From Phoronis australis (Eukaryota; Animalia; Phoronida): a DNA stretch of 64,000 bases. This document shows, one piece after another, positions 28,599-51,965 of the stretch (positions within the stretch are counted from its first letter, which is position 1; every line of letters starts with the position of its first letter). The notes beneath the pieces were generated by a model, which saw only the letters and a program-made list of their open reading frames with translations, did no database searches and was not told the DNA's origin. The stretch lies in contig NMRA01000017.1 of assembly GCA_002633005.1 (NCBI GenBank), positions 268,260 to 332,259 on the forward strand, written 5' to 3'. The position numbers and the translations under genes were made by a program.

Positions 28599-28677
28599 AT
28601 GAACAGCGTCTTAGGAAGAAAGATTTATGGAAAGTGCTGCTTGACTGACTTTCTGATTCACTGCTTTTGCTCTCAAT
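28599..28677 (+). CDS. Alternative first coding exon, Cys-rich (MNSVLGRKIYGKCCLTDFLIHCFCSQ +1 nt)
   Basis: caccATG Kozak context, 26 codons + 1 nt, donor AAT|GTGAGT (phase 1). Confidence 0.55.
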
Positions 28678-31600
28678 GTGAGTAGTGTTATTGATAGTTA
28701 ATTGGTGTATTTACTCTTTGATGTCTCAGGCTGTGTGCATTTGAAGTGTGGTTGAGCATGGTTGTGTGTCTCAGGCCTGGGTCTCTACTGTTGGCTGGTT
28801 TATGTTGACCTGTCATGAAACAAGAATTGGTCATTTTCATAATATATGCGCAACAATTGTTACAGTTGCTCTGAAGTACTCCCTATGATGAAGGATTCGT
28901 TTTGTCTGAGCGCAAATGCCTGTCATAATTCTTACTCAAGTTGTGTCCAGAGGGCACTTAAACTAACCAAAGGTACAACTGGAGCAACATGGGACCCGTC
29001 CACAATCCCGTGGCACAAATGGTGTCAAGGGAGTGGAGGAGGGCGGAAATTACTTTGTGCAAGATATTCTTGTAGGTTTGGTATCAACATAACTGCTGGA
29101 GGTCATGGAAAGAATGTTTTAAGATATATTCCTCACATTTCTGTTATTTTATTTTGTTTAATGTGAAATTAATTAATTTGGTGCGAGATTTGCAAATGTT
29201 GTAAACTTAGCGTTTGGAAAAACTCATTTGTGCAAGCACCTAGCTGATAATTACTTGCACCTTGCTCCAGTTTGCTGTCCACAAGGACACATGAAGTGGG
29301 GCAAGTTGAACTACCCTAAACGTAATAAGTGAGGGGTTAGTTGTTTCCCCTGTGTCAAGTTGTGCTACTTTAACTTTTGTCCACATGGTTATTGAACTGG
29401 CGCAAGTTACACTCGGGACAGCTTTGGCTTGTTGGACACTGTTGCATTCAGAGTTCCCTGTGTTGTTGCTTCGCTGTTAAATAAACCTCTTTACTCTGCA
29501 GTAATCTCGCACTGTTAACTTCGATCCAAGACCTAAGTCAGGTGTTCCCATTGACCAAAACTTTGCTAACACCGAATCTTTGGAGCCAGTAGTCACTTGT
29601 TCATGGCCATTTATCTGATGCATGATCAGATAAAAGGGTAACAACATTTTTCAGAGTTTTTCCAAAAGTACTAGCAGTCTGAGTATCAATGGTTCGTTTC
29701 ATAGCAATACAACCTTTTCAGTGACTTTTTTATTAGAATGTTATGAATATTTTTAATATATAGTAATTCTGGAAATGTGTGTTCAAATACTGTGCCATCT
29801 TTTTCATATAATTCACAACAGCTTCCATCAAATATATATCAAGAGTGACTTGATGTTGGCAGCAAATCTCTTTTAATGCCAGTGATTCATTCAACAGCAT
29901 CAAGAGCGAACTTAATTAACGCATCTTGCTCAATTAGTTTGAGCCAATTAACATAAACTCATGTTTTAATTGGGATTTTGTTGACTTGCTACTTTAGTGA
30001 AGAATGAAATTCAAATATTGAATGTCGGACAGAAGCTCAGCACTAATACACACATTTTTATGCCATGATTGAAATAATCAATAAAGATTACGCGTTATTT
30101 CCATTTTAAAACCTACGGAGATCTCTAGGAAAGTGCTGGCAACTGTCAGCTCTTTCCTTGACTCGGTTAATCTCAAATAGCAGTCATGTTGGGTTGAAAA
30201 ACTGCTCGTCTAAAATAGTTGATGCCCACCGTATTGACGTAATGCCTTTTGTATTCTGCCACATGATCTTTTGTAATTAGATGCAGACATCTGTGTTCAT
30301 TTGCTTTGTGTTTATAAGGGCAATAACCTACCCCACGTATTGTCAAAAACTTGATTAAATGTAAAAATCCTTCAATTTGGGACAAGAGATTTTCATTTTT
30401 TAATTTTTTAGATTCTTGTTGCATGTGTGCGTGTTGTTAGTTGAAAGTGCACAAACTGCGATGAAAGTTAAAAGAAAAAGAACATTTCCTGAAAAGTCCA
30501 TATCTCATCATGTTCCTTACTGAGGTTAGATACGATTTCTATGTTTAAGATTATAAATCAAACAAAGGATAAAGACACAGTGACGTTCCTTGGGAAGTTG
30601 ATGTTTTTAACACTAGAGCATGGTTTACTGCTTGCTCATTAATTTTTAGATTATTTCAATTTTTTTGTCTTCAAATATCGTGTTGTAACTTCAGAATGGT
30701 GTTCTGTCTCCGGCACAAACACTAACAGACTGGTCATAGTTGAGCTTATTTATATAATGCTCTATTTCAGATTGTATCCACAAAATTTTTTGTATGGCCA
30801 CCTTTATAATGTTTACGGTACCAGGTGAGGACTGTAATTGTAGGTTAAACTGTTGAAAAAGCAGTGTATGTTCAAAACCCTTTTTTCCACCTCTTGCGTT
30901 TTGTGTGATTGTTGTTGAAGTCCGACTTTCATGGTGTAGCTCAGTTAAACATCAAACATATATCGCTGTGGTGATTGATGTTAGTTAAATTTTGCAATTT
31001 ACCTACTTAATATGCAAGCACTTGTCATTTAACCTATATTAGCTACAATTTGATATATCACTATGGTGATTAGAACCACATGGGGCTTGCCTTCCCTGTC
31101 ATACATGAGCACTTGGTGAAATAGAATTTTACAGAGAGAGGGGAGAGAGGGAGAATGAGGAAGGATTAATTTTGGTCCTTTTGAGTGTGTTAACTTTAGT
31201 ACCATCTTAAATTTAGACCGGTTTAAATCACCTTTTACATTGGGTCTAAAATTCTTTTCTTTAGGTAAGAATGTTAGTCCGGTGTTTTAAATTTGCAGGG
31301 CAAATGGCCCTTAATGAGATGAGATTAAACAAATTTGTAAAAGGGAGATGAGAATTCTCTAAGAAATAGTAGACTAAATTAACAGCAATAATATGTCTGA
31401 ATCTTAAGGATATTTAGATATGTGAGCTTTACTGATAGTAATAAAAATTTGAAAATTTACAAAATTGGTCATTGTTTGGACACTATAAGTTTCATTGTAT
31501 GATGTGTTTTGTCAAAAGCTCAAGGTCTACTGCTTTTGCTTGAAATCGGGTGCAAGATGGCGCTTTGGTGGCCATTGTTTGATTGTTCACTATACCTAGA

Positions 31601-31799
31601 GGGCTATTAGTAATATAGTATTTGACTTGCCATTCTGGAATTATTCGAGATTTTTCAAAGACTGGTCTTTGATTAATTTCGCATGCGATATCTCTAGCGT
31701 CCCTTGACAGATCTCTCTGCAGTTAGGGTTTTACGTATATCTCGTCAAGGGGTTTATGAAATGTATCTGATTTACCGTTCTCGACTTTAACATTTATTG

Positions 31800-31920
31800 T
31801 TATAATGAGTAATAGTCTGATATAACGTGCCTGCATTTTGAGAACTAGTTTTCTCCACTAAATAACACCACCAAACTGGTTATCAAAATACAGGCACATA
31901 TCGGACTATTGCCGTTATAA
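31800..31920. mobile_element. Small hairpin MITE
   Basis: TTATAATGAGTAATAGTCTGATATAACGTGCCTGCATTTTGAGAACTAGTTT pairs with AAACTGGTTATCAAAATACAGGCACATATCGGACTATTGCCGTTATAA. Confidence 0.7.
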
Positions 31921-31968
31921 TGACTTGTATTATTGACTGATTCCTCTCTGCTCTTTTGTTGGTCTTAA

Positions 31969-33296
31969 AGACGAAAGCAACCTTTTTTCATGTCACTTTT
32001 AGCAAAAACAAGGTTCGTTGATTATCCCAGACACATTTTTCACTTAATTACAGCTTTTCGTAATTTGATTAATTTCTCGTGCTCCACTCAGGAAGTGACG
32101 TTTTGGGAGGCAAGAGTTTCGCGCCAATTTCTTTTCATTATGGTGTGACTGTGAGAGCTGTCGACTCAGTCATTGTTCTACCTCGGTTGTGATAAGTTCG
32201 GTCGTCATTTGCTTTTGTTTACAAGTCAGTCAACATGCCACGCTGTTGCTGCGTGCCGGGATGTACTCATTATCGTCTCACACGGGCTTTGGGTACCTTG
32301 CGTCGCTTTCCGAAGGATGACACACTTCGCCGTACTTGGCTAGCTCGTTCATGTGAAGAACGCAGCGCTACCCGTTTACGCAACGTACAAAACCGTGGAG
32401 GGTTATCGATTGTGTGGCAAGCATTTTCTGCCGTCAGATTATGACAGATATGTACGCTGAATTGATGAAGGTCCCTGCGAAACAACGCCTGAAGAAGGGT
32501 ACCATACCGTCGCTGTTGATTCCCGGCAGTGCCCCGTCGCCAACCCCGAGAAGTGCGTTTTTGAAGCGAGAAGCCTCGCGAGCTGTAGCCACTATATACA
32601 GTTACTGGAGGCACTTCATCTGCTGTCACCCGTGCTTCCGAACGTACCCCATTGCGTGCAATTCCGGGAACTAGCAGTGATTCGCCCTGTGCTGTTGTCT
32701 CTAGCCCAGAGCCTGTAAGCAGCCCTGCAGCGATGTTGAGTAGTGGGAGTGAATACAGGCCCAGTTCGACACCCAGTGAAGAGGACATTTCGTCATCCAA
32801 TGAACAGATCGGTGAGCCCAAGTTTGATAAGTTTATTGTGGACTTGTATTGGAGCTATTTGGAAGGTGCAAGGTGTGTGGTGAGGGAGTCACATGGCGGG
32901 ATGTAAGTAGTTTGGGTACTCATATCACCCTTCAGTGGGAGTGTGTCGCGGGACACTCGGGCAAGTGGGACAGTTCTTTGTCTGTACGTGAGACGATAAT
33001 GAGTACACCCCAGTACGCAGCAACAGCGTGGCATGTTGACTGACTCGTAAGCAAAAGCAAATGACGACCGAACTTATCACAACCGAGGTCGAACAATGAC
33101 AGACTCGACTGCTCTCAGTCAGACTATATGAAAAGAAATGGCGTGAAATTCTTGCCTCCCAAAACGTCACTTCCGGAGTAGACGACGAGTAATTGATTAA
33201 ATTACGAAAAGCAGTAAATAAGTGAAAAATGTGTCTGGGATAATCAACGAACATTAATTTTGCTAAAAATGACATGAAAAAAGGTTGCCTTCGCCT
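31969..33296 (+). mobile_element. Kolobok-like DNA transposon deletion derivative with a THAP-domain transposase remnant
   Basis: TTAA flanks both sides (31965-31968, 33297-33300). Termini AGACGAAAGCAACC ... GGTTGCCTTCGCCT (5'-RR..YY-3'). Inverted arms ~31969-32286 and ~32985-33296. Internal THAP-type sequence. Confidence 0.85.
32235..32985 (+). pseudogene. Frameshifted, truncated THAP-domain transposase
   Basis: MPRCCCVPGCT...RFPKDDTLRRTW...CGKHF...RLKKGTIPSL (THAP C2CH zinc finger with an AVPT-like end). Then an acidic linker (EYRPSSTPSEEDIS), KFIV and CKVC...G...LQWECVAGHSGKWDSS, split across frames. Confidence 0.8.
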
Positions 33297-34729
33297 TTAA
33301 TGGTGTGCACGCTATGGGTTAAATTTTTGTCCGATCAACATGAAACTTAAAAGAAACGCGTATCTTTGTGAAAAGGTCGTGACCAATTATCTTCGAGCAA
33401 AACCTAATGCAAAATGGCTGGTGACAGTTACTTTTTGAGTTATCTCCGCCCTTTGATGTATTCTCCAGAGTTTTAGTGTGTAGATCGGTCTCGTTATGGG
33501 CTGTCTGGATTATGCCATCTGTTTTTTACTGCAACTAATCATTCTCAGGTTATTTGAGATTTTCTGATTTGATGACTGTTCCTTTGTTAACTGATGCCAT
33601 TTTGTTGGTTTACTGTACCATGCGGCGATGCTTTTTGATCATTTTTGTCATCGTTAATCATCATCTTGTAATCATTGTTTTTCAGTTACTGCATAAGGCT
33701 TTGTTTCTTATTATCAGTTTTATCATCCATCATCATCGTCCCGAATCATGGTCATCATTTTCGTTTATGTCGCCAAATGCTTTCTCCTTTGAGAGCGTTT
33801 TCAGTTTGCAGTTGATAATCCTGTAACTTTTCTTGGTACGATTTCATGCGTATTTGTCATCTAATTGACCTGAAATTTGCTCGGAATATCTATTATATTC
33901 CTCCCCCGGGGCCTATTGATTTTGGTGAGAATAAGGCTTAAGACAGTGTAATTATCAGGCATTTGTTTTTCCTGGTAGGGACCACGACTGAGATTTGACT
34001 GACCTAGTTAAGTACATGTAGGACCCTCAAGAGAATGCCCAAATTTGGCTAACTTCATAATATCATATCTCAGAAATGTCTGATCGGAATCATCTGTAAC
34101 TTTTAAATCTATGCTTCATTAGTTGTTCTCAGAAACACTGCTGGGATTTTTTTTAAAATGAACACTTTTGCATCAGGGGCTTTGAAAAATATGAGTTGAA
34201 TGCTTTTCATTAAACTAATAAAAATTTACATCAAACTAAAAATGAAATGATAATTTAGAAAAATTTGTCAGGATATTTGAAATTTCATACCAAGTAATAA
34301 TTTTTTGCGGCGAAGTCATACACGGTAACTCACATGTAAACATCAATGTGGTGGCCAGTGATAAAAGATCAAGTATAGGTGAAGAGTGCACTGTTGTGAG
34401 ACCGAAATTTTATTTGTTTTCTTTGAAAAATCACTGGTGTTTTTCCCTACCACTTTGGATCAGTGACAGTTTGCTCCCCAACTGAATTTATGAAATACAC
34501 ACTGTGGCTTGCTGCGGCAGAATATTTGCATCAGTTTCAAGTTAAGGTGATAAAGAAATGTCATCAGTTTAGAAAAGTTTTCCTCTAATTTACTACCTAT
34601 TGCTGAAATTTGACATATGATTAAATCTCATCAATTTTGAACAAAGATAATTTCCAAAGCTGCTTTTTTCTCATATTTCAATGTCTTTTGACATTATTGT
34701 GAATAGCCACTAACAGTTTTTTTAAAATA

Positions 34730-35041
34730 TTGTCTGTGGCTATGGTACAGAACTTGATCATTGTCTGTCTGTGGCTATGGTACAGAACTTAATCACTGTG
34801 TGTCTGTGGCTATGGTACAGAACTTGATCATTGTCTGTCTGTGGCTGTGGTACAGAACTTCATCATTGTCTGTCTGTGGCTATGCTACAGAACGTGATCA
34901 TTGTCTGTCTGTGGCTATGGTACAGAACTTGATCATTGTGTGTCTGTGGCTATGGTACAGAACGTGATCATTGTGTGTCTGTGGCTATGGTACAGAACTT
35001 GATCATTGGCTGAATGTGGCTATGGTACAGAATGTGATCAT
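34730..35041 (+). repeat. 35-bp minisatellite, ~9 copies
   Basis: Unit TGTCTGTGGCTATGGTACAGAACTTGATCATTGTC with period 35 (34741, 34776, 34811...). Confidence 0.95.
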
Positions 35042-35110
35042 AAGTGAGCATTATGTTGCTGCACAGTAGCTTTTATGAAGTTAATGAGAAAATAAAATCT
35101 CACTTGTCTG

Positions 35111-36112
35111 CAGGGCTTCATCCAGAATTTCGAAAATAAGGTGCCCAATATGGGGTTCCCAATATTCCATGGCGTCCATACGCATGTTGCCCCCCCACTA
35201 CATTTCACCAGTAATCCCCTCCACACCTGCACAGTTTTTACAAAAAATTCATGGACCAAGGCTTTTACATCTAAGTTTACAAAAACAGCTCCCCTGTAGT
35301 GAACTTTTTATTAAAAGCAGTGCATGGACCAAAACAATTATGTCTAAATTTAAGAAAACAGCCAAGTAGCTTACCTAACAAATATTACAGATATTGGTTG
35401 AACAATGAGTGCACTATGTTTTTGGTGATCTCAAGTCAAATTGCTGTTCTAAAGTTTAACATATAATCTTAACGATGTTTTATACTCAATGAGTCATCAA
35501 AACTGCAGTTACTAGCACAAGAAAAATGCATAGAAAATGTGTGGTTTATATTTTGGCAAAACAGGTGTCACTGCTACTCCATGTTAAAACATTAAAACGC
35601 ACATTGAAAAGTGTGAAACACGCTCAAACTCAAAAATTTTAAATGGACATATTCTTGTGGCACAATATGATGTTAACCTAATGACATTTATTTTGCTTTT
35701 GGTGTTTTTAATAAAAGTTGAAAAACATGAAACTACAGCTCTGAAACACCAGTTTGGAGTTAACCAATGTCCCTACCGCTGTATAAAGTACTGAATTACA
35801 GTATGTAAAAAGACCACTGAAAGCAGACTACCTATACTGGTAGACACTGAACAGCTAATGATTGACTTGTCTTCTCAGTAGTTTGAACATTGCAACATGT
35901 TATATACAGTGTATATTTCTTTCAGACTTGAAAGGGCCAACATTTCTCTCTTAAACTTTCATTAACTTCCTGTCCTAGTAATCTTGTCCAAATTGGAGAA
36001 ATTCTGATTGACAGTGGGTGCCCAAATGATACATTGGTTGTCCTTGCTGGGCATCCACATAAGTATTAGAGCGTCCAATGGATGCCCACGACCTATGCTG
36101 CATGAAGGCCTG
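35111..36112. mobile_element. Non-autonomous hAT-type DNA transposon (~1.0 kb)
   Basis: TIRs CAGGGCTTCATCCAG / CTGCATGAAGGCCTG and a perfect 8-bp TSD CTTGTCTG (35103-35110, 36113-36120). Subterminal GGG(T/C)GCCC/GGCATCC motifs. A right-end fragment recurs near 52943-53024. Confidence 0.85.
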
Positions 36113-36261
36113 CTTGTCTGCCATCTTGTGTCCTAAACTGATGACATTTTTTCGTACCTACATGACGAAGACAGTTAGTGCTGATTGCAGGAGGCTGAAA
36201 ACTGAAATTTTTCTATATTTTGATATTTTATATTTCTATGTTATTCTGGATCGATAAGTTG

Positions 36262-36377
36262 GAGTAAGTTGTTACAAGTGGGGTAAGTTGCACTAGTTTA
36301 AATAGCGTCCACACCGCTTCCAAACCTAGCGACAACTTGTTCAAAGAGTAACTTGTTCTATGGTAAGTCTGTGTGTT
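36262..36377 (+). repeat. Interspersed repeat, homologous to 63013-63127
   Basis: Shared GTAAGTT..ACAAGTG.GG.AAGTTGCACTA.TTTAAATAG.GTC.ACAC...CAAACCTAGCGACAAC...GAGTAACTTGTTCTA.GGTAAGTCTGTGTGT. Confidence 0.85.
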
Positions 36378-38773
36378 GGGTAATGAAGATATAGTGTTTC
36401 ATTGGCACTGTTTGATACACCTTATTCGTACAGTTACCATTTAAAAAAGTGAGCCTCTTTTTAAGTTTTAAAAGCATTGCATTCTACGCTTAATCACGGC
36501 GCAAAGCGTCATTTTTTTCGCGCGTGTCTCGTTATATTACATTTATATGTATATTTTATATAAGTGCATTGTTTTTAAACCTAAAAAGATACTCGCTACT
36601 AATATCGCGACTGCATAAATAATGTCTATTGTGGAAAAATACCAGTATTCCCAGTCTAGTATACTTAAGTTGACTCTTGCAGACAAGTCCATCACATTGA
36701 CCCTAATTGACCACACGTTGATCTTAATTGACCATTCAGGTAGTTGTCCACCCAGGACAATATTGTGTTTAATGTACTCACTCCACTTTAGCCCGAGCTG
36801 TTATCTCGGACTAAAATGTCACACATTTCGTGGTGTGGGGACAGGAAATTTAATTTTAATTTAGGTCTAATTACTAATTTATGTCTAATTACTAATCGTT
36901 GTGATGTTTCTGATATTGATGTAACAGTTATATTCATAACACTTTAAAAGTACACTTCATATACTAATTGGCACTTGAACCTGGTGGAGTTAGTTTGGAA
37001 ATGAATTTTAACGATTTTAGTTGTTATGAAGAAGTTGTGTTATAACTTTAAGCAGTTTGCAGTGAAGATGTCTAGCATAATCACACTTACTGAAACAGAC
37101 ATATCCTTTGCATTGATTACTGCCTAAAACCATCTTTACACCCAAGTTGTCAACACCCGGTGTTGGTGAATGGACTAGTTGTTGTAACTATTAAAGAAGA
37201 GCACTACATTGACAGGTCAGAAATGGTGAACAGTCGAAATGGTTCATTTAGCCAAAATAACACCAATAAGTTCCAGAATCTGACCACAATATAACCGTAC
37301 AAAACACGAAGTGTTAACTTGCCTTATTTCACGACTTATTTTTTGTAAGCACATATCTTAGCCAAGTCGAATCATTTGATATTTCGCCATTGTGTAATAA
37401 TTGCCAAAATTTTCATTTTTCAAGGACAGATTACTTTGCTATAAATATCAAAAACTACCAATTTATGTTTTTTGTGCATAGCACAAACCATGGTAGTAAT
37501 AGTCAACCTTTAACTTTATTTGTTTGACGAAATTTGACAAAATAGACTTTCACTTGTCGGCCATATTGTATGCTTATTAAGAAAAGCATTACCGCTCTTG
37601 TCGTCTTTATGGAAATGTGGATTAGTGCCGTGGTCTATCATCAGTTTAGGACACAATATGGCTGACAAATGAATGTTTTATTTTTTATTTTTCGTGACGG
37701 AGAAGTAGCACCAACCTACCGCTTTAAGATTTTCAAGTTTTATACCATAGGTACCAGCGTACAAAGTTTTGAGAAAGTGTGGGAATTCACAACAATGTCA
37801 GAAGCCTTTAAAATTGTTAATTTTGGCAATTATCATGCGCGCACCCAGCCTTCAATATGGGGCGGGCTCGAATTTCTGTCGATGTGAACGGGGTGCTACC
37901 TTCAAAACTGTGAACTCTGCGTCTGCGTCTCTTTAGTGTACTTTTGCCTCATTTTCTCAGAGTTTTTGTTACTCTGAGGCGGACCTTTTTGCCCACTTCG
38001 CCAAATGGGGAGGGGTGCGCGCGTGATTATGTTACAAATGTTTTGTGCAAACATTCTAAGTACAGTGTTGAAGAGGAGTGACAAGGTATGCAGACCCTTT
38101 CATTGTCTCAAGTTTTGGTGAACTTTCGTAATAAGTTGTGAAGTTTCAACCACATTAAATCTGGGCTTTGTATCGCAAAATAGATTAAATTTAAGCCATT
38201 TACCAATATAAAATTGGTCTCATCTTCATCACTCAGTTTACAAGTGGTCTCTGGACTCAAGCCATTAAGTCATAAAATTTCAAATCACATTGCGACACAA
38301 AATTTCAAGCAATAAAAAAGCCTGTTCTTTCAAAGCTCTGAAAGCCTCTCAAATTTGACTGTAGAAGAGTTTGAGACCAATTTTGTAATAGTAAGTGTCC
38401 TGATTGACTAATACTGGATCACTGACAACCAATCTTGGTTTTAACTGAGCAGAGGTTAATGTATAAAGACTTATGTGTGAAAAAAGTTAGTCGAAACCTG
38501 TCATTTTTCAGTACACGACAAATGTTTGTACCAATAATTTCCACAAACTCAATGGCCACTTGCTTAACCTTGAGATAGCTTGAATGAACTTGGAATTCCA
38601 TGTTCATTGTAGTATTTGAAGTTTACTCAGGACCAATACAATCTCAGAGCCATGACATAACTTGATCTGACACATGGTATGTATAAATTATTCATCTTAG
38701 CGCGTGCTGTCAAATGTTGAGAAAATGTTCAACCGTTCATCTGGAATTCAAGTTCAGAATGATATGCTTGGTT

Positions 38774-38873
38774 AAAATGTGTTTCCTAAATACAAATAAT
38801 ATTTCTTGTATCAGCTAGTCAAAATGTGTTTCCTTAATACAAATAGTATTCCTAGTATCAGCTAGTTGAAAAT
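38774..38873 (+). repeat. 47-bp tandem duplication
   Basis: AAAATGTGTTTCCT.AATACAAATA.TATT.CT.GTATCAGCTAGT occurs twice. Confidence 0.85.
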
Positions 38874-39452
38874 AACCAAAACATTTGTTGTTCAAAAAAA
38901 GTAAAAATTTTTCAGGTATTTCATACAAATTTGGCTTGCAGTGAAGTCAGTGGTGAATGGCCACAGCAGAGGTAAAAATTTTAATCTTCAATGTATGTGT
39001 TTCCATGGTTATACGCTGGAAAGGGTTGAATTTTGCTGTAAATTGGTTGCACAAGCCTGTATTAATCTACACTATAGTGTCATATGGAAAATGATGAACA
39101 TTGTATTGAACAGGTTTTCATTTAGCTGTGACTTGAACAAATTACAGAGGCAATGAAAGCACCATGTTATAAAGTAGTTCCTTTCTGCTTTTGGGAAAAT
39201 GAGAAACAGCGATAGTTTACTCTAGAGTGCAGGATATCATATACACAGGGGTTATGGCAATGACCTATTGTGTCTCCAAAGACATTTCAATAGCAACATA
39301 TCCGTTTTGAGTTTCAAGGTGAGTTCACTCCAGTGGGAACAGAATATCAGGCACACATAGTCATAATCATGAAGTGTGTTCATTGATGCCTGTGAAAATT
39401 GACCTGAATTTTTTTAAAAGTACATTCCATAATGACATTTTGTTACAGTTAA

Positions 39453-39621
39453 ATTCTAATGAAACTATTGTATTATATTCAAGGCTATAGTAATTCTAAT
39501 GAAACTTTCTGTTGTATTATATTCAAGGCTGCAATAATTCTAATGAAACTTTTTATTGTATTATATTCAAGGCTATAGCAATTCTAATGAAACTTTCTAT
39601 TGTATTATATTCAAGGCTATA
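39453..39621 (+). repeat. ~44-bp tandem repeat, 4 copies
   Basis: Unit AATTCTAATGAAACTTTCTATTGTATTATATTCAAGGCTATAG(C/T). Confidence 0.9.
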
Positions 39622-40699
39622 AGCATCCTATTTTCATTCTGGCTCCCTCATTTATTTTGATAAGCATGTTTTAAATATAGATCTGCTCACTGTTTCTTCT
39701 GTTGTGTAGTGAAAGAGATGTTGGACAAACTAACTTCTCAATACATTTCTTTATTAATACTTTCTACTATGAGAACCAAGTTTATTGTTTCAGAAGGTTT
39801 GACATTATGGATAGATTATGTTTCTCAAGTTACCAGACTGTGTTGGTGAGGACACCTGCTGGAGGCAACGTGAACTAAGTGACTGGTTGGCTGTAGTGAT
39901 AAGACATGGATGATCTACTGTAACTAGACTGATGTCTTGCGTAATGATAATGAACAAATATGTGCTGCATTATTATAATCAATATATCTATATCAATACA
40001 GGTATGTTAATAGATAAACAAAAAATAAATAATAAGCCCTTACCCTTGCAATAATAAGTTACATTTGTTAGTGTGGTGGTCGATTTGGTAACTTGCAGCT
40101 CGCCAATGTAATTTGTATCAGTTTATTTTTATCGTACTTCTTCTGGTAACAATTTCCCTAACTTAACTTTTTACTAGGAATAGTATTTCAGAAGCCAAAC
40201 AGTTTGAAAAATCACCAGTTTTAGTTCAGGGCATATCAATTAATTTTACCCAGTGTTTGACTGTCATGAAGTCATAGGTATGCAATAAGTGCTATGGTCC
40301 ACATAACGTGCACAATTTCCTGATGAGCGCCAACGGGACTTGTACAAAAATTGTGACCAAGTACAAGGTGCTTTGAAACGGGCAGAGTTTGTTATGCAAA
40401 TAATAATTCGCCTGCAATTTGCTTCCGATTTTAACTTTTTCCAAATGCAATATATTTGTTCCGCAATTATGGTTATTTTCTGAAATCAGTTCATCAGCTG
40501 ATCTTCGGCGTACACATTTAAGTACACGCTGAAACTACAACAAGAAGTTAGGACATGGGATCGATATTTTGTGGCAAAAACTAGGAGGGCCCAACCGTAA
40601 CGCATGCACAAACCACGGGTTCTGTGTCTTCTTACCCCTAAACCCACCACAAACTGTGAACATTTGCCAGAGGCTCATTTCATTCATTCAGTCTGCTTC

Positions 40700-41060
40700 A
40701 GGCAAATACGTACTCACAACATGGTGACTGTCGACACTGAAAATGCATCATACAACTTCAGGTTCATGTTTGTAGACATAGGAGCACGAGGTCATGGTGG
40801 AAATTTTCGTGTTAATGCAAATCAAGTCAGAAAAGCACTGGGCACCGATTCACCTCAACTTGCCAGAACCAAAGAAGTTCATGGTATACACAGAACATGA
40901 CGCATTCCCCATTGAAATCTCACTGCATCCTCATGGTTTCATTAAACCCCATCTTTCTGAAGGCCTACAAATAGTGTATAGTGCCTTCAACAAAAAAATA
41001 CCACTACTGATATTTCCATAGAAACACTGTAGACAAAGAAAGAATCCCATGTTTTGGCAA
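40700..41060 (+). mobile_element. PIF/Harbinger (HARBI1-like) DDE transposase relic
   Basis: NASYNFRFMFVDIGARG..GG, then LNLPEP...HDAFPI, match the Harbinger transposase motifs DAxYxFxxVDxGxxG and LPxP...GDxAFPL. Frameshifted. Confidence 0.7.
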
Positions 41061-41471
41061 CTTTATCCAAATCTTGCGATTCATATTGATGCCCATTTCA
41101 ATACTGGTTCTTTATATGCATTATTGAAATGCTTGTTATATGGCGATGAATTAAGCTTCTTTGCTTGTAATCCTTGTTTCTAATGAATTGAAAATAAAGT
41201 GAGTTTGTTTCTAATGGCAATTAGTTGCTTGTGTTCTCAGCTAAACCCTTCACTTTTACTTATTGACTACCTTTGAAATTGTATTTTTGTATACATATGT
41301 CATCAAATCTAGGAAATCTTATTTATACATGACATATGTCACCTGCATATTTAAATACGATGTCAGTGATGTGTGAAAACTCTTATTTTCTCTGCCTAAT
41401 CACACCTGTACAGCTAGTTTATGCTGGACACTCACCTGTCGTTACTCAGATAAATCCCTGTTGAGTACGAA

Positions 41472-41697
41472 ATGTTTTCATCGTTTTCAAATTTGTCTTC
41501 TGACAAGACACTTAGGAGTTTTGGAGACCTGTGCCAGATTGGATCGTTACGACCGTCGCCGTCTGCATGTCGTCGTGCTATCACCCCACAGCTTCAACGG
41601 AGAAATTTGAATCAACTGCAAGTGCCAGTTTGTTTGGGAAAGACTGGACTAACATATGGTAGCAGGAGTCAACTTTTAAATGCTGGAGTGAATAACA
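41472..41697 (+). CDS. Alternative first coding exon, paralogue A (MFSSFSNLSSDKTLRSFGDL...AGVNN +1 nt)
   Basis: gaaATG, 75 codons + 1 nt, donor AACA|GTGAGA. 19 of the first 27 aa are identical to the 45123 exon, many with synonymous codon changes. Confidence 0.8.
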
Positions 41698-43090
41698 GTG
41701 AGAACTTCAACTGTTTCATTGTTTCATTTTGTTCTTGTACTTGATATTGTTATTAAGATTGTCTGGTAATATGGGTGGATTTTCTTGACCTGCTGAGGTG
41801 TTTATGTGCATTGTGTTCTATGGTTTGAGTGCCTGCTGTAGTCCAATGCATTTCTTAATGAGTTAACATGAGAGATAAAACCAGACCAACTATCCACCAG
41901 CTGCCCATGAAGGGGTCGTATCATCATCATTTACTTTGTTTCCTTGATATCATTATCAGTCTTAAGTGATAATTGATCTCAAAACAGGTTCACTTTCAGC
42001 AATAAATGGATAAACCTAACACTAAACACAGCCCTCTTACTCCTGCCTGTGTGTATCCTTTGAAACAGCTATTTACAAAAAGCGTCAGCAAAGCACCAGC
42101 AAGGATGGCCCTTGTAACTTCACACAACTGGCGTTTTTTGCAAGTAGCATTCAGGAAAAGAAGACAGCTAGCATTCTTGCCAGGTTGTGAATAGGGTTAA
42201 TCTGGTGTGTTATGACAAATAGGTTAAGGGTCATGTACAAGGCTGATGTCGTGACAGCTGGTTCTGAGGAACAGTACCTTGAATGGAACTAATTTGCATG
42301 GGCATGAGGTCGAAGGGTACACTGAGATGTGTTAATGATGTGTTAATGATGTATTTTCATGGGTGCGTGCTCATAACTATGCTAATGTATATCAGGAACT
42401 AAACGACAGTGCTTTTTGAATGGTATGCATGCTAAACCAAAGTGCATTGGTATTCAATGACAACTTGTAAATATGAAAACAAAAAAATCAGCAAATAGGT
42501 GCACTATTGATGTACCTTGAAGGCTCACATAATCCACATCATGCACTGTTATTTCCTAACACCACGTCACGATACTTACTGGATACGGTTGGTTGATTTA
42601 TGGCGAACCATTTTCAACACAAAACTTAAAAACATTTGGCAATTTTCAACCTAATTCATATTCACATCGTCGCTATATGTTGTGTTTCTAACTAACCTAA
42701 CCAAATAAAATAATAGCAGGCGGTCTGATACACGTTGTACCAGATGTGCGCAGGCCTTGCATGTGGGCCCATTGCACTGATCACCTGGAAATATTTTTAT
42801 GCTTTATTGATATATGGTTAAAACTAACCTAACCAAGCAATCACAGAGATATATAAGGAATTAATGTGCAAGTTCCACTTAAAGTGGCGTTACTGAACAG
42901 CACAGATTTGGGACATTAAATTTTTGTGAATGTTGCATGAACGCGCCAGAGTGCGATTCTTTTGTAGTCCAGGATCGTCAAAACATTGAATATAGGGTAT
43001 TGCAAATTCTTCAAAAAAACCTCTGGTTGACAAAAGTGTCCAGTAAGAGCCAGCACATGTGGTAACAAATGTCTTTTGACTGTAGTTATG

Positions 43091-43230
43091 AGTAGCGGAT
43101 TTAGAGGGGGACAAGGGGGCCATGGCCTCAGATTCCATTTGTCAGTTCAAGGGTCAAATGTCTGATGGGCAAAATACTGGCTAATACTCTGCTCTGGCCC
43201 CCCTAACTCAAAATCCTGGCTCCGCCATTG
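43091..43230. mobile_element. Short MITE (CAGTGGCGG...CCGCCACTG-type ends)
   Basis: AGTAGCGGATTTAGAGGGGG ... AAATCCTGGCTCCGCCATTG, with GTTATG on both flanks. A related element lies at 61667-61977. Confidence 0.65.
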
Positions 43231-43895
43231 GTTATGATACATTAAGAGGGGAGTAGACTTCCTGTGTTTTACTTATCATGCAGTAACAGGTGATATGTTT
43301 GTTTGTTTTGCAATGTTCAGTGGTATACAATGAGCGTGCTGAGATATTGGCTCATCTTTGTTTGTGCACGATATAATTTCCTTTGTTTTTATTCCAAGCT
43401 TGTGAACATGTATCCCATCCTACAATAATATTATGGCGAATTGCCAAACTGCTTTTATTCTTGCATTTTTAAGTGATTGATTTCCTGGGAAATTCAGAGT
43501 GACGTTTGCAATTTTGAAAAAAGCACATTTTTTGTGTCATAAAATGTTAATCTCTAACATCTGCCAAACAACAGTGAGAGTGTGGAGGTCATACCTGCTT
43601 GACCCAATTTCAAGTTATGATATACAATCTAAGGTTATGTTGACCTCAACTCTAATTAAGTCAAATATTGAGAAAACTTTGCTTTGTCATCCATTAGAAG
43701 TATATATTTTCTGAAAGGAGAAAGATTGAGGATTCTAAAATATCCTTCTTATTGCTGTTTCTTTAATATATTGTCATGTGACCGTGTTTTTTAAGGTAAC
43801 TGAACCTAATGTTAAGTAGGTTGTACTTATGTCCAAATATCTTAAACTCCGGTAGCGCAAACCCCTTCAAAGTATATATTAACTGAAAGGTGAAT

Positions 43896-44313
43896 ACATT
43901 CCCTAACAAAATTTATTAATCTAATTTATTTTTCTTTATTTTTTAAAAGATATGTATTTTTGGTAATTTTTTTGTCTTTAAACAGATTTTAAGAATATTG
44001 TTACTTCAGTCATATTGGTCTTTTGTCAACACGTTGATAAGGCATTTTCGAGGGAACCGTGTCTCAGATTTTTGAACTATTCTTCGTTTATGAAGGCTTC
44101 GTTCTGAAAAATTAGAAACCTACTTCAAAAATCTGAGACACGGTTCCCTCGAAAATGCCGTTATTAATGTGTTGACAAAAGACCAATATGGTTCAAGAAA
44201 TATTATTTTTGAAATCTATGTTCGAAGTCAAACAATTTTTGTTACTAAAAATACATATCTTGTGGTAAAATAAAAACACGTAAATCAGAATTATAATTTT
44301 TTTAGGGAAATGT
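43896..44313. mobile_element. Fold-back palindromic element (~420 bp)
   Basis: Perfect 36-bp inverted core (44041-44076 vs 44124-44159), near-perfect arms 44011-44076 / 44124-44190, and diverged outer arms out to ACATTCCCTAA / TTAGGGAAATGT. Confidence 0.85.
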
Positions 44314-44784
44314 GGTAAATAAGTGTCTGTTATGATGGTGATAGCATCTATCCATTTTGGGATGGATTTGACGTATTGTGCGCCACCTAGTGTCTATTTT
44401 TTGATAATTGCAAACATTCCTAGGATCACACTGTAGTTTGCGTTGATGTTGCTGTGGTTGGTGCATTTCAACGCTCTGCATTGCTCTTGTATAGAATTTT
44501 GAAAAACACTGAAAATCTCAATGCTTTTAACCTTCATCCACATCACATGTGAAGTGACTGAAGGTGGCGCTGAATGTTACCTACCAAATACTATATAACC
44601 TGGTATCAACATTGTAATGGCCCACGCATTGCTTTAAATCAGGTCATCATTGCATTGCTTCAAACTGGTATCAATTTCATGAAAGTGAACAGCAGTCCAG
44701 TCAGTCCTCTGTTTTATCACATTTAATTGGCATCTTTCTGGTGTAGTTTAACTCCCAAATCGTAACTTTTTGAATTTTTAACTT

Positions 44785-44957
44785 TAGGGTCAGTGCAGAT
44801 GGATACGACGAGCTGATAGCTTTTCCCAGGATGTGAGAATACGACAACAATTGCTCTCTCAGTTGTTCTTGGTCTTGTCATTTTACCTGTTAGACCAGCT
44901 ATGGTTCACTTGAGACGGTCAGTTCAGCTCTCATCTGTCCATCTGCACTGGCCCTTA
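44785..44957. mobile_element. MITE-like element with ~32-bp TIRs
   Basis: TAGGGTCAGTGCAGATGGATACGACGAGCTGA pairs with TCAGCTCTCATCTGTCCATCTGCACTGGCCCTTA. Confidence 0.7.
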
Positions 44958-45122
44958 TAATTTTCCCGAGTATTCTAGATAAAAATGCAGCTTTAATGTA
45001 CACATGATGTTGGAGGTCAGCGAATTAATTTTGCACAAGATGTCGGAAAATTGATGAATCTGTTCAAACAACCAGCATGTGTTGTTGTACGTGACTAGTA
45101 ATTACACATACTTGTTTGGAAA

Positions 45123-45324
45123 ATGTTTGCATCAGCGTCAAGCCTCTCCTCTGATAAATCACTCAGGAGTTTGGGTGATCTTATGCGAACAGGGTCGTTG
45201 CGTCAGTTGCCAATTGACTTGCGGAGGTATGCAATAACCCCACAGGTGACCCGCAGAAAAGAAGTAAAATTGGGCAAGAGGGTGAAGCCACTGCAGTCAC
45301 ACCTTAGACAGCAAAGTAATAACA
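45123..45324 (+). CDS. Alternative first coding exon, paralogue B (MFASASSLSSDKSLRSLGDL...QQSNN +1 nt)
   Basis: aaaATG, 67 codons + 1 nt, donor AACA|GTAAGC. Protein-level homology to the 41472 exon, including AITPQxxRR and terminal NN. Confidence 0.8.
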
Positions 45325-45470
45325 GTAAGCAGTGATTACTGGTCTTTGTAAAGTCAAATGAATGTTGTACCTAGGAGGATCTGGATGTTTCTGGTGTTTG
45401 TAACAGTAACAGAAAGATCTTGGTGTTATAGCTTGGAGGTGATGTTTGGTAATGGTGTTGTGCTGATGTG

Positions 45471-46110
45471 TAGTGCAAGGACTAGCTAGGCTTGTTGGAG
45501 TTTAATGCAAGTATTAGCTAGGCTTGTTCATGTTTACTACAAGAACTAGCTAGGCTTGCTCATGTTTAGTACAAGGACTAGCTAGGCTTGCTCATGTTCA
45601 GTACAAGGACTAGCTAGGCTTGTTCATGTTTAGTGCAAGGACTAGCTAGGCTTGCTCATGTTTGGTACAAGGACTAGCTAGTGTTTAGTACAAGGACTAG
45701 CTAGGCTTGTTCATGTTTAGTACAAGGACTAGCTAGGCTTGTTCATGTTTGGTACAAGGACTAGCTAGGCTTGTTCATGTTTAGTGCAAGGACTAGTTAG
45801 GCTTGCTCATGTTTAGAACAAGAACTAGCTATGCTTGCTCATGTTTATTACAAGGATTAGGTAGGCTTGTTCATGCTTAGTACAAGGACTAGCTAGGCTT
45901 GTTCATGTTTAGAACAAGAACTAGCTATGCTTGCTCATGTTTATTACAAGGATTAGGTAGGCTTGTTCATGTTTAGTACAAGGACTAGCTAGGCTTGCTC
46001 ATGTTTAGTACAAGAACTGGCAAGGCTTGCTCATATTTAGTGGTAGGATTAGCTAAGCTTACTTGTATTTAGTACAAGGACTAACTAGTCTTACTCAAGT
46101 TTAGTGGAAG
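45471..46110 (+). repeat. 32-bp minisatellite, ~20 copies
   Basis: Unit TAGTACAAGGACTAGCTAGGCTTG(T/C)TCATGTT with an internal palindrome CTAGCTAG; decays at both ends. Confidence 0.95.
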
Positions 46111-49100
46111 TACTATGCCTTTTTTGACCGTTAGCTTACCTGTCGAATTGCGATTAGTTGTTGAAGTTCTTTTTAATATTCACATGTCCTTTTTAATGTG
46201 TATAGATAAATCTCTTTAGTAAGAATTTTATTCGTTCTAACTTTGTATTCAGCAGTGAGTTAAAAAGTTAGTTAAAAATGCCATTACACTACCTGGAGTT
46301 AAATCTCAGTTGATCTTCATTGGTTTTCAAATTCTCTTAAAGTTGTGAATGTCAGCAATTTCTCAAAACATTGTCTTATGGTAGCCATGGTATATAATGT
46401 GATAATGCAGTAATTTGTTGTCTATGGAAAATAGGAAAAAATGAATTTACACCTTTCTGCCATATTGTGTGTGACTTCATAGTGTTTTATAAACAATTAC
46501 AGTGGATTTTTTCTCTAGACAAAAATAAGACTTGGACCAAGGGAGAGCACTTTTTTATAGTGAAAAAATTCAAGTTGTTCTCTAAGAAATTTTAATGTAT
46601 TTGTGAATTACCAGTCACTTAGTCACATGGGCACTTTTCTTGAGTTAAGGTTTTTATATAGTAGTGTAGATATTTGGGTAAATGAATACACAGACTGGCT
46701 TGTCATTCTGATCCTACATCACCCATGTTCTGAGCCTGAAAGGTAATATTAGTTGGACTACCTTTGTGCCATTTTCTTATGCGCATCAATTTGGGAAACT
46801 CTGGTACAAATCTGAGACTTCAAACAAGAATATGTTCAGTTCGTGGGGATAAATTTTCGGTTGAAGCGGTCAGTGAACTTCATTCAGTGCATGATTTTAT
46901 TGCATGTTATCTCTGTGTCTCAGGATACAAAAACGGTTCCTCTGTAAAAATGTGCAAAAACCATGGTTTTCAATTTAGATGGCATGCTGCATGGGGTATT
47001 TACACATTTTTTACCAGGTTTCTCTGAGGAGCTCCTTTTTTGGTGTTGATGTTGAATTTTACACAGCTGTGCAGATAGGCTAAATGAATGTTAAACGAAA
47101 TATTAATATAGCTCTAACACTCTTCGTTGTTGTCATGTGGTGATCTGAAGGACTTGATGGACAGACTAAATAGTGGTCAGTTGTCCAGCGTGCGTGCATG
47201 ATGACCAAGGTCCCCCTTTAATGAACACCGATGTAACTGAACAGTGCTCTGGTTATACTGTTAACCCTCTTTGGTTAGTTATCAGTTCAATCACAGTTAG
47301 CAGCCATTTGTCATAATATACCGGTAATCAATAGAGTGTCTCTTCATTAATTGTGAGTCTTTGAGAAAGTACTTGTAGCAATTTCAGAAAGTAGTTGTAG
47401 TAATATTTTCATCATGATTGTGATACGACGAATCATGAAATTTAACTTCTTAATTAATTTAGTTACATTTTTTTAAATTTCCATCATTGTGACATGTCAC
47501 TCCTTGTAAAATCACCTGCCAGACACTTCATTTAAACATGCGAGGCCTCTTGCGCACTTCCCCCAGTTGATTGTCCTTAGATCTCTGGTCTATATTTGCA
47601 AGCCCTGGTTGATTGAGCGTGTGTAATATCTACAACATTTGCTGTTGATATAACATTAAAATCCATTTGAGGAATGGAGCCTGAAATTTTAACTGCACCA
47701 AACACACACATACTGGGTAACAGACATTATGACATGTTAAATAAAACATGTTAACTCTGCCTTGACACACACTGCTCCCCCTGGCTGTCTGTTTGTTCAT
47801 GCACTTAGCTAATTGTTGTGAGTCATTAAGCTGGAAAGTCAAAATAGTAGTTAAAACATGACCTCTTAATGTGTGATTATTTCAGCATTATTTGAAACCC
47901 TTTATATTTCCTGCAATGATTGTGTGACTGTAATAATCGAGCTCTGGCTCTTGTGCTGCACTGGATTTGTTAATATGTCAACTTGTAAATAGTCTGGGCT
48001 TGTATAGTTAACTGTTGAATGTGTGGCTAAGTGAGTTGTGTAAAGAGCATTTATTCCTAGTATAGACATCTAGGGTCAGGATGGAAACTACCAGAAACTA
48101 GGTATGTCTATTACAGCATTGGCATTGTGTCTTGTTTTTGATAATGGAGGCTTGAGTCTTTGGTTAACGTTTACTGGTTTAAATAGTGTGAGGTTTTGTA
48201 AAAACTGTCATCCTCACGTGTCCCTGTCTCGTGGAGGTTTGCAAACATTTTTAGATAAAGTGATCGGCTTGGATACAAACTTCAACTGCTCTTGTCTCTT
48301 GGCAAAACATTCTACAAATGTCAACTAGACTATTGAATACATTGGTCTACAAAACATTCTACCAATATCAACTCGCCAATACACTGGTTTACGAAAAAGT
48401 AAATCTGTAAACTTAAAGGTAAATGAATTACCTATAAATCATGACATTAGACAATGTATATCTGTCGAAGTGCTCTCAATAGGATTCAAGTTGGTGAGAA
48501 TAACACAACACTGTCAGTTTCAAGGTTCAGCTCAGTCTCAAAGAGGAGGCTACCATCTTCTGTACTAAAACTGTTGTCAATAATTTAAAGTTGCATTTCG
48601 ACCTGTCTTGCTGGCTAAAACAAAGAAAACAAATTAGGCCTTCACTCTCATAGAACCGGTATCAACGTTTTCCTTATCATGACAGGACTTGTTTACGGTT
48701 ATCAAGAACATATAAACTTGCAACAGGTCAAAAACACATCGACGATCATTGATTTTGTTTGGCTTGGCTGACCTTGATATTCATAAATGACTCGCAGGAA
48801 CTTCCTGTCAAAAGTAGGCCAGTCACGTGGCACAACCGCATGACAATGGCTATTTCGCGTGAGTGCTCCGCTGATTGCTATCCATAAAGTCAAAAATTAA
48901 TTTCTACAGCATTTTTATTGGCATGAAAAATCTGCATTAGCTGAGTTTAATTCTTTAATTTTGTGATTATTTGTCAAAATGCACACCTTTGCTGATCCCA
49001 GTATACATGCCTCTTTCACAAATCATCTGAGGGTGTCATATCTACTCCCTATCCTGCTTTTGAAACCAAAAAAAAATTGAATTATCTGTCAATAGTTTGT

Positions 49101-51572
49101 ATGTTTTGGCTCTTCATACTTAGGTAATAATAGTCTTTGAGACTTTCAGTGATGTTGTATCTTTCACTATGAGCAACAACCCTGCCCTCTGTTGTCCATT
49201 ACGTTGAACGAAGGTCACCATTTTCAGTTCATGGTTTGTTATTTAGAAGTTATTTAAAATCAAGTAGCTTCACTATTTGATCAACTTAGGTGAGGTTTGA
49301 TTTTTGCTCAAAGTAAATGTTAATTATTTCCTGTAATCCGGTTGATAAGTCTTAAATTTGTAGATAAACCAATGCCTGTGTTCAAGCCAAGTGCTTTGCT
49401 AGACCAGCCTAATGGTTGTGTATTAATGTTTTTGTAGCTCTGCTTCCAGTTTGTAGTCTGTTCCATCAGTCTTGCACAAGATGTGGAGTTCAATATTATG
49501 CACAAATCTCATGTTAACGAACTCTGATGTCTTCCAAAACTCCGTTTCTTTAGAAAGGTTGCGTAAGTGCAAATTATGCAGTAGTCATCTGATACAGTCT
49601 AAACATTTCTGTGCATTAAGCGAAAATCTCCTGGTCTTGGTACTTGTAACTTTTCAGCATTTGTGCGTAGAGGCCGGTGATAGAAATAAGAGCCTCACTC
49701 TCATCTCCCCCCGTTATGTACACTAGTTAATCCAGTCATTTTTCAAAATTATACGAGAATTCTCATGTTTGACGCACAATATAGCGGAAGAAAGAGGAAT
49801 TCTATTTTGTCAAATTTCTGCACAAAAATAAAGATTACCGTATTTAGAAAATTTCAGTCTCTTACAAATTTGGTTTGTATACTGTGTAGATTTCATATAG
49901 CAACATTAGTTTCCTTTCTTTCCAACGTTTGAAAATTGGAAAATGGCAATTTTGGGAACTATTTTTGAGTGAAATAATTGGACAATTACCGAATCTTTAA
50001 AGAAAGACGTCTTAGAAAGAAAAGACCTCACTGTCTAGTTATTCATCACCAATTATACATAACCATACCATGCAATTCATTGACTTGTTTTTTGTTATTT
50101 CTCAAACTAAAGCTATATTCTTTTTTTCAAAAAAATTGTTTCCTCTGTTTAAAACGGCATTAAACCCACCTTACGTCACAAAACTTATTTTTTGATTCAG
50201 AAATCGGTCTCAAACTATTCCTTAGTCTCGTCTGAGCATGGAACGAGATATGACCAATTTTGTTGCAGCAAGTGGCCTAATCAGAAATCTGCATCTTGGA
50301 CGGAACGGGTTTATTATCACTTTAAGATGGTTTAAAATGCAAATAGAATTGTGGCCGCTTACTCTTATCAAATTACGGAAAAATTCTTCAATTTGGTACA
50401 AAAATAATAGTAGTAAAATTGCCGTATCTTTATTTTTCTGATGGTTACATGTTGTTGCAAAATGCTCAAAATCTTAGCAAATTCTGTTTGGTAATAGCTT
50501 CACCATACTAACTGCTCTAAAAGCAAAGTAAATTTTACTAAATAGTTATTTTTGTTGAGGATATGACAAAATGAAATTTCAGCAAACAGAAGAATCTTTG
50601 TTATGCTTCAAAGTTTCCCTTACTATATGGAACTTTGTTTCTGTTTCATTAACAAGAACATTCAAACCTTCAGCACTTTTACCAGTGCTGCCATGCCCAG
50701 TGAACAAAAACTCAAAAACGATGCACTTTACAAAGGGTCAAACTGGTACATAGGCAACATAATAAACTGACTTGTTTATTAAGTTTGTGTAGCCTACTGA
50801 CTGGCCCTTTATAAAACTTTGGCTAACAGAAAGTGGTGTTCATTTGGGCTGAAACAAATTACCACTTCCCAATTATCCTTAGAACAGGCTAATGGTTTAT
50901 GACTTTCTAATACTGGGCGTGTTGAAGAACATCTGATTATGATGTGCTGAGAATCACACCCTGAAATTTACAAGTATTGTGTGCTGAAGGAGTAGTATCT
51001 ATGTTTAAAACTTTGGTTGCAAGAGGCGTTCTTATTTTTGACGACATGACATCTCTTAATGTATAGTTTGAGGCTTAGGTTAAGAATTATCCCTCTTGGA
51101 AAGGATGGTGTTTCTGATTTAAAATCCTAGGAAAAGGTGACTTTTTTGGCATCTCAACAACTGGGTCCCTTTTCCGTTCTCTATTGTTAGGTGTCCTAAT
51201 TTTTCTGTTGTACACCCCTCCTGCCAAAATATAGTCATTGATCTTACCATGTAACAAGATGTGTTGTGTACCCAGGCTATTATCTTCTGACCACTCACAA
51301 GTATTACTGTACAGGCGCTGTGGGATCACAGTTCATGACGTGCTACAAGGAGGTTCATGTCAGAAGACAATACAGGTCGTTGTGCTTGAAGTGAGCCATG
51401 CTCAGACTCTATAGCACACGCACACAACATACACACACACTCAGTGTACAGTGGTGGATGTGGTTTTATAAACCATCTCTGTCTGACTGGTATGCTTTAC
51501 AGCTAATGTGTCATAAGACAGTAAACCGCTGGAGAAGTAGGATTGCTACAGTCTGTTCCTCAATGGGCATTG

Positions 51573-51672
51573 ATGGTTGACACAGGCTCAGCTTCAGGGT
51601 TGGACATCGTCAAAAGGAGTTTTCTTCTGGCCATGAAGACAATGAGGAGTTTATTCAACAGTGGAAAGAAAA
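51573..51672 (+). CDS. Alternative first coding exon (MVDTGSASGLDIVKRSFLLAMKTMRSLFNSGKK +1 nt)
   Basis: First in-frame ATG after TAA at 51522, 33 codons + 1 nt, donor AAA|GTGAGT (phase 1). A second frame (…KEFSSGHEDNEEFIQQWKE, phase 2) is also open. Confidence 0.55.
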
Positions 51673-51949
51673 GTGAGTAAGGATTAGTATACTCCACACT
51701 CAATGATTACTGTCTCGCATTCAATATACAGGTCTGCTGCATGCATCTCTGTAGTTAAATTTTTTTGTGATCGTTAAATACTGTTAGTTGTCAATCAAAT
51801 TTAAATGTGCTCTTTCCGACACCATGTAGCTGTTTGCCTGTTGGATTTCATTAATTAAGGTGCCGAGTAAATTGTTTTGCCTTGGAGTGATGCCATGCGT
51901 AGCATTATAATCAAGTTTCTCAAACTAGGGAATCCTCCTGAGCTGAATT

Positions 51950-51965
51950 TGTGTGTATGTGTGTG

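What the first reader, a model, noticed from the sequence alone, without database searches (positions are those of the whole stretch)
28599..51672. Array of alternative phase-1 N-terminal exons, possibly a cassette of interchangeable targeting/regulatory leaders for one downstream protein
Seen: four short ATG-initiated + strand exons (28599-28677, 41472-41697, 45123-45324, 51573-51672), plus 5686-5797 further upstream. Each has length 3n+1 and ends at a good GTRAG donor, and I found no shared downstream exon in the window. The peptides differ in chemistry: Cys-cluster (CC..CFC), Ser/Arg-rich paralogue pair, basic amphipathic-looking helix (IVKRSFLLAMKTMRSLF), and Gly2/Cys/KKK. Established: alternative first exons joined to a common body occur in PRKACB, ABL1, PDE10A, PFKFB, KCNIP and FGF13, and often set subcellular localisation. 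Inference: these are mutually exclusive first exons of one signalling gene whose body lies beyond 64 kb. Because the 28599 exon ends in T, the shared exon cannot begin with AA, AG or GA.
Basis: partly seen in the sequence, partly recalled or inferred. Interest (0 to 1): 0.8.

Follow-up and report, generated by a model that had tools for sequence, protein, structure and literature searches.

The report
Swappable first exons, partner gene unknown
Four short start exons spread over 23 kb of an invertebrate genome each sit where RNA reads come from one strand only, and they likely splice one at a time onto a shared gene body outside the window to give one protein different, possibly membrane-targeting, front ends, a familiar design whose gene here could not be identified.

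Summary
The four ATG-to-phase-1-donor exons (and 5686-5797) are at the stated coordinates. That pattern alone is barely above chance (13 on + against 7.5±2.8 simulated). Other evidence favours real first exons. All 4 exon bins carry RNA reads of one orientation only, among 9 such bins of 60 (p about 3e-4, threshold chosen afterwards). Two chance look-alikes lie in empty bins. The paralogues 41472/45123 show purifying selection (pS 0.70, pN 0.25). Every ATG has an in-frame stop 6-33 codons upstream and no strong in-frame acceptor. A sixth candidate is 15148-15232. No shared exon was found up to 64000. The decisive proof is missing: no junction read from any donor was displayed, depth is only a few reads, 5686 and 15148 were not tested with RNA, and no homologue names the gene. 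Most likely these are alternative first exons of one + strand gene whose body lies beyond the window; targeting roles are inferred from motifs only. The design is well known (C. elegans kin-1, PRKACB, KChIPs), and this scan has noted similar arrays in other genomes (81 notes match the words). Ordinary, not yet proven.

The parts
5686..5797 (+). Candidate first coding exon, 37 aa + 1 nt, Met-Gly start, Cys8, KKK; predicted N-myristoylation/palmitoylation leader
   Evidence: Sequence; A at -3, in-frame stop 33 codons upstream, no strong acceptor. Not covered by the RNA lays.
15148..15232 (+). Sixth candidate first exon, 28 aa + 1 nt, three Cys near the N-terminus and an amphipathic stretch; donor AAG|GTGGGG
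   Evidence: hydrophobic moment 0.74, reached by 1 of 1000 shuffles (one of six peptides tested); stop 8 codons upstream. Not covered by the RNA lays.
28599..28677 (+). First coding exon, 26 aa + 1 nt, four Cys (predicted palmitoylation cluster); transcribed leader of about 270 nt or more upstream
   Evidence: One-orientation reads in X1 and X3, none in X2; X3 reads at 28329-28498 and none in the next bin; X1 reads continue into the intron. Good start context, stop 13 codons upstream.
41472..41697 (+). First coding exon, 75 aa + 1 nt, Ser/Arg-rich, paralogue of 45123; an acceptor-like AG at 41449 may mean that a non-coding exon precedes it
   Evidence: One-orientation reads in X3 only; pS 0.70 vs pN 0.25 against 45123; stop 6 codons upstream; acceptor-like site.
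45123..45324 (+). First coding exon, 67 aa + 1 nt, basic and Ser/Arg-rich, paralogue of 41472
   Evidence: One-orientation reads in X2 and X3, with 3 X3 and 2 X2 reads at 45274 inside the exon.
51573..51672 (+). First coding exon, 33 aa + 1 nt, basic/hydrophobic; the most downstream candidate
   Evidence: One-orientation reads in X1 and X3; stop 16 codons upstream, weak -3 context.
51673..64000 (+). Likely intron running on beyond the window towards the shared exon
   Evidence: No bin downstream of 52109 holds first-mate-minus reads only; no phase-1-entry exon with a donor found; T>A and G>C skew persists to the end.

Best explanation
The window likely holds the long 5' region of one + strand gene in which at least four, possibly six, separately promoted first exons would each splice in phase 1 onto a shared exon beyond position 64000, giving one protein several interchangeable N-termini. 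Shown: exon anatomy, one-orientation RNA reads over the bins of four exons, coding-type constraint on the duplicated pair. Inferred: separate promoters, splicing, one common acceptor, mutual exclusivity (it follows from each exon carrying its own start behind an in-frame stop). Predicted from motifs only: the leaders would set membrane attachment or regulation of a cytosolic protein (Gly2 plus Cys, Cys clusters, basic amphipathic or Ser/Arg-rich segments), as in C. elegans kin-1 or the KChIPs. The array grew at least once by old duplication of a first exon (41472/45123).
For: 4 of 4 exon bins have reads of the first-mate-minus orientation only, among 9 such bins of 60 (hypergeometric p 2.6e-4; X3 alone 6 of 60, p 3e-5). 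Three of the other five such bins adjoin an exon bin. Only 1 bin is purely of the other orientation (binomial p 0.011). Two other phase-1 look-alikes (33846, 49481) lie in bins with zero depth. Paralogue pair: 18 of 29 identical residues use different codons, pS 0.70 vs pN 0.25 (Fisher p 3e-6), flanks unalignable. All six have an in-frame stop 6-33 codons upstream; the only strong acceptor after the stop lies inside 41472 and is phase 0; five of six have a purine at -3. No joint among 28677, 41697 and 45324 is listed. Strand skew typical of a long + strand intron from 8 kb to the end. Use differs among the three samples.
Against: No junction read from any donor was seen: 645 and 140 loose-end rows and 5 joints were not displayed. 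Depth is low (268-1933 bases per exon bin and run), bins are about 570-600 nt wide, and nascent intronic RNA has the same orientation. X1 reads run on past the 28677 donor to about 29.4-30 kb. The purity threshold was chosen after seeing the tables, and the two lays used different likeness cut-offs (90, 97). Library strandedness is not on record. The raw phase-1 count is only about 2 SD above chance. 5686 and 15148 have no RNA test. No homologue of any leader was found.
Confidence: 0.7

Rival explanations
1. The exons are real first exons but do not all feed one acceptor: for example the 41472/45123 pair goes through its own second exon or belongs to another gene, or 5686 and 15148 belong to a different transcript.
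For: The leaders are unrelated apart from one pair. Two-tier N-termini exist (Cav beta exons 1a/1b versus exon 2, PMC3972191 passages). No acceptor was seen for any donor.
Against: All six share phase 1 and strand, and no coding exon or gene body lies between them, so separate genes would have to be nested inside each other's first introns.
Confidence: 0.15
2. Only the duplicated pair is protein-coding; the others are chance ATG-to-GT frames inside non-coding, unspliced or nascent + strand RNA.
For: About 7 such frames per strand are expected by chance. X1 reads cross the 28677 donor. No conservation evidence for 5686, 15148, 28599 or 51573. 51573 has a weak start context and an overlapping upstream ATG.
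Against: X3 has reads in all four exon bins and none in the bins directly after 28599 and 51573; other look-alike frames have no reads.
Confidence: 0.11
3. They are internal cassette exons of one gene whose ATGs are incidental.
For: Acceptor-like AGs lie upstream of 41472 (41449) and 45123 (44893, 44978).
Against: In-frame stops lie between those AGs and the ATGs; no strong phase-1 acceptor follows the stop in any of the six. X3 reads cover about 270 nt upstream of 28599, across the in-frame stop.
Confidence: 0.04

Closest known systems
C. elegans kin-1 (PKA catalytic subunit; PMC9692727 passages)
   Same: One invertebrate gene with six alternative 5' exons giving unrelated N-termini, of which N'1 is myristoylated and N'3/N'4 are not.
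   Different: Here the body is unseen, and no Met-Gly-Asn exon of the conserved C-alpha1 type lies in the window.
Vertebrate PRKACB/PRKACA (PMC6143667 and PMC3625193 passages)
   Same: Alternative 5' exons of very different length (a few to 62 residues) on a constant core; one long leader with a predicted amphipathic helix.
   Different: No sequence link was tested or found. The phase of intron 1 was not in the passages read (phase 1 is recalled).
KChIP (KCNIP) and DPP6/DPP10 N-terminal variants (PMC3973911 passages)
   Same: Several start sites give cytoplasmic, myristoylated, palmitoylated or transmembrane N-termini that set localisation.
   Different: No transmembrane-type leader is apparent among the six; no EF-hand exon is in the window.
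Multiple-variable-first-exon clusters: UGT1, protocadherin, plectin, NOS1 (PMC1885805 passages)
   Same: Tandem first exons spliced to constant exons, with growth by exon duplication.
   Different: UGT1 and protocadherin variable exons are large paralogous domains; here they are 26-75 aa and only one pair is paralogous.

Membership tests
Gene with alternative coding first exons | Each exon has its own start codon behind an in-frame stop, with no in-frame acceptor | tested here: met
   (6 of 6 with a stop 6-33 codons upstream; one phase-0 acceptor inside 41472 only).
Gene with alternative coding first exons | Exons are transcribed on one strand | tested here: met
Gene with alternative coding first exons | Donors share one intron phase | tested here: met
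Gene with alternative coding first exons | All donors splice to one acceptor | tested here: inconclusive
   No donor row among the displayed loose ends or joints; 645 and 140 rows hidden.
Gene with alternative coding first exons | Separate promoters / transcription starts | not testable with these tools
   No CAGE or long reads; no begin pile-up listed near the exons (table 6).
PKA catalytic subunit (kin-1/PRKACB type) | Canonical first exon starting Met-Gly-Asn (conserved to Hydra and sponge, PMC6143667) | tested here: inconclusive
   0 of 52 Met-Gly starts on + begin MGN; such an exon could lie outside the window.
PKA catalytic subunit (kin-1/PRKACB type) | Kinase core exons downstream | not testable with these tools
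   No genome held; no shared exon in the window.
KChIP / neuronal calcium sensor | EF-hand core exons downstream | not testable with these tools
   Body outside the window.
UGT1/protocadherin-type variable-exon cluster | Many large paralogous variable exons each encoding a domain | tested here: not met
   Exons encode 26-75 aa; 1 of 15 pairs is paralogous; no Pfam family.

The most novel reading that the evidence does not exclude
A conserved signalling enzyme in this invertebrate has gained a lineage-specific panel of six promoter-linked leaders, one pair born by duplication and kept under selection, that together cover myristoylation, Cys-cluster palmitoylation, an amphipathic helix and Ser/Arg-rich regulation, so that promoter choice alone routes one catalytic body to different membranes in different tissues.
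Probability: 0.3. Interest if true: 0.45.

Novelty: new member of a known kind. Interest (0 to 1): 0.25.

Why it matters
If true, it adds an unannotated case of promoter-selected N-terminal diversity in an invertebrate, with a visible birth of a new leader by exon duplication. It would matter more once the gene is named: a six-leader kinase, phosphodiesterase or channel regulator would be a tidy model of how localisation signals are gained. As it stands the architecture is common (3,296 human genes with distinct alternative first exons were examined in PMC2923625, abstract) and the gene is unknown.

Tried and rejected
No own genome is held, so the region beyond 64 kb could not be read. No RNA holder listed for 41400-51300; the runs laid were same-species additions. 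Protein searches: 45123 leader against longer proteins, 0 of 101 candidates at E 10; 41472 against 1.84 billion representatives, 2 hits, both low-complexity repeat proteins judged chance; 28599 frame, 0 of 1 candidate; the 517-aa stretch of the 5' ORF, 0 of 6896. Metagenome scans: 0 of 422 and 0 of 595 pattern matches confirmed. Atlas: nothing usable. Pfam: 18 stretches, only THAP at 32229 passes its cut-off. Earlier findings by place near, relatives and sequence: none; one word look-up was empty. An apparent likeness of the 15148 and 51573 peptides was rejected (335 of 1000 shuffles). No RRxS/KKxS-type site is in any leader. Phase-1 look-alikes at 33846 and 49481 were rejected (zero depth); 32733 and 42937 lie in both-orientation repeat bins; 10746, 10865 and 14021 are untested. 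Five paper searches listed no paper that identifies this locus; without a gene name this is no test of whether it is in print. No supplements were read.

Full report
Setting. The window is eukaryote-like DNA of about 38% GC with many short repeats. No genome is held for it. An earlier AI note on the same genome calls it likely a mollusc (e1-10581269); I did not test that.

Observation. The four exons and 5686-5797 are as described: ATG start, no stop, length 3n+1, GTRAG donor. The pattern alone is weak. ATG-to-GTRAG frames of 70 nt or more number 9, 13 and 9 in phases 0, 1, 2 on + and 6, 3, 7 on -, against about 7±2.8 per phase in 100 Markov simulations; the phase-1 excess is z about 2.0.

Are they exons? 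Three raw RNA-seq runs of the same species label (X1-X3, about 18-19% of each read) were laid on 46150-64000 at likeness 90 (with contig set X4) and on 28300-45440 at likeness 97. Most reads come from repeats and lie in both orientations. Of 60 bins, 9 have reads of the first-mate-minus orientation only (summed depth 0.2 or more) and 1 of the other orientation only. All 4 exon bins are among the 9 (p 2.6e-4; in X3 alone 4 of 6, p 3e-5). In most stranded libraries that orientation means + strand RNA (tool note); strandedness is not on record. The threshold was set after seeing the tables. Three of the other five bins adjoin an exon bin (28872, 44316, 50918). Bases laid in the exon bins for X1/X2/X3 were 1047/0/1933 (28599), 0/0/429 (41472), 0/487/498 (45123) and 268/0/775 (51573): a few reads each, hinting at sample-dependent use but too few to prove it. 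Look-alike frames at 33846 and 49481 lie in empty bins. X4 had no depth in the 51573 bin. Against a clean picture, X1 reads continue past the 28677 donor (depth 1.32, then 0.48), whereas X3 drops to zero.

Are they coding? For the pair, yes by inference: over 44 aligned codons, 29 residues are identical, 18 of them with different codons; differences by codon position are 9, 11, 28; pS 0.70 vs pN 0.25 (p 3e-6); 300-nt flanks do not align. This is an old duplication kept under selection. For the other four there is no conservation evidence.

Are they first exons? Each ATG has an in-frame stop 6-33 codons upstream, five of six have a purine at -3, and the only strong acceptor after such a stop is a phase-0 site inside 41472. 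X3 reads cover 28329-28498, upstream of and across the frame's stop region, so 28599 has a transcribed leader; it holds short upstream ATGs. 41472 and 45123 have acceptor-like AGs upstream of their stops, so they may be preceded by non-coding exons.

Do they share a body? Not shown. No joint among the three donors is listed and none from 51672 among the 15 displayed (5 hidden); joints between the two laid stretches could not be seen. The loose-end rows at the donors were not displayed (645 and 140 rows hidden). No phase-1-entry exon with a donor was found downstream of 51700 (acceptors with 11 or more pyrimidines of 15 and 90 nt or more open), and no bin there holds first-mate-minus reads only. 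T>A and G>C skew runs from 8 kb to the end, and AATAAA is half as frequent on + as on - (41 vs 82, largely explained by the skew). This fits one long + strand 5' region whose next exon lies beyond the window. Any shared exon cannot begin AA, AG or GA.

Which gene? Unknown. All homology routes were blank (Pfam). No Met-Gly-Asn exon of the PKA C-alpha1 type is among 52 Met-Gly starts on +, which neither supports nor excludes PKA.

Mechanism. Likely each exon has its own promoter and splices to one phase-1 acceptor, so that promoter choice picks the N-terminus. All six leaders are net basic (+2 to +10). 5686 has Gly2 and a Cys; 15148 and 28599 have 3-4 Cys; 15148 has a significant amphipathic moment, 51573 does not. 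That Gly2 and Cys clusters are lipidation signals is established knowledge (PMC3973911 and PMC6143667 passages); that these leaders are lipidated is only predicted.

Comparison. It works like C. elegans kin-1, with six 5' exons that differ in myristoylation (PMC9692727 passages), PRKACB and the KChIPs. It is not a UGT1/protocadherin-type cluster (PMC1885805 passages). Molluscan Cav beta also has alternative N-termini, which did not change channel kinetics (PMC3972191 passages), a warning that leaders need not alter function. Alternative first exons are common (PMC2923625 abstract). A word look-up in this scan's notes gave 81 findings in at least 32 genomes, 8 shown; these are unchecked AI notes and not support.

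Verdict. Observation confirmed; interpretation probably right (0.7) but its key step is unseen; a new member of a known kind; interest 0.25.

Noticed in passing
window 3-1793 (+): A 596-codon stop-free frame open at the window's start (longest in 500 shuffles 262), about 45% GC, with short N-terminal repeats and a basic stretch; no Pfam, protein or Atlas match. It may be the last exon of an upstream gene, a large alternative exon or a transposon ORF.
   Followed up: partly
window 31965-33300: Element with 317-bp terminal inverted repeats (90% alike) and a THAP domain at 32229-32441 (E 1.7e-5); RNA reads in both orientations with many differences suggest a multi-copy DNA transposon family. No target-site duplication seen in 12-nt flanks.
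   Followed up: partly
window 44316-44887 (+): Reads of one orientation in X1 and X2, with a GAT|GTGAGA donor-like site at 44832 and no phase-1 ATG frame; possibly a non-coding first exon or the leader of 45123.
   Followed up: partly
window 50918-51513 (+): One-orientation reads in X2 only, with a donor-like site at 51390; possibly a non-coding exon upstream of 51573.
   Followed up: partly
window 47938-48533 and 38596-39167: Low one-orientation read depth (X3; X1 and X2) with no assigned exon.
   Followed up: no
window 28542-28559 and 51563-51580: Short upstream ORFs: one ends 39 nt before ATG 28599 in the same frame, one overlaps ATG 51573 out of frame; they could dampen translation.
   Followed up: no
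window 58161-58259 (+): ATG frame ending in a Cys-rich stretch at a very strong donor (CCG|GTAAGT) but in phase 0; reads there differ at 3-4 places within 11 nt, so they likely come from another copy.
   Followed up: partly
window 43899-44309, 55266-55609; 45466-46105, 9796-10112, 34731-35041: Two long palindromic (MITE-like) elements and three minisatellites of 32-35 nt period.
   Followed up: no
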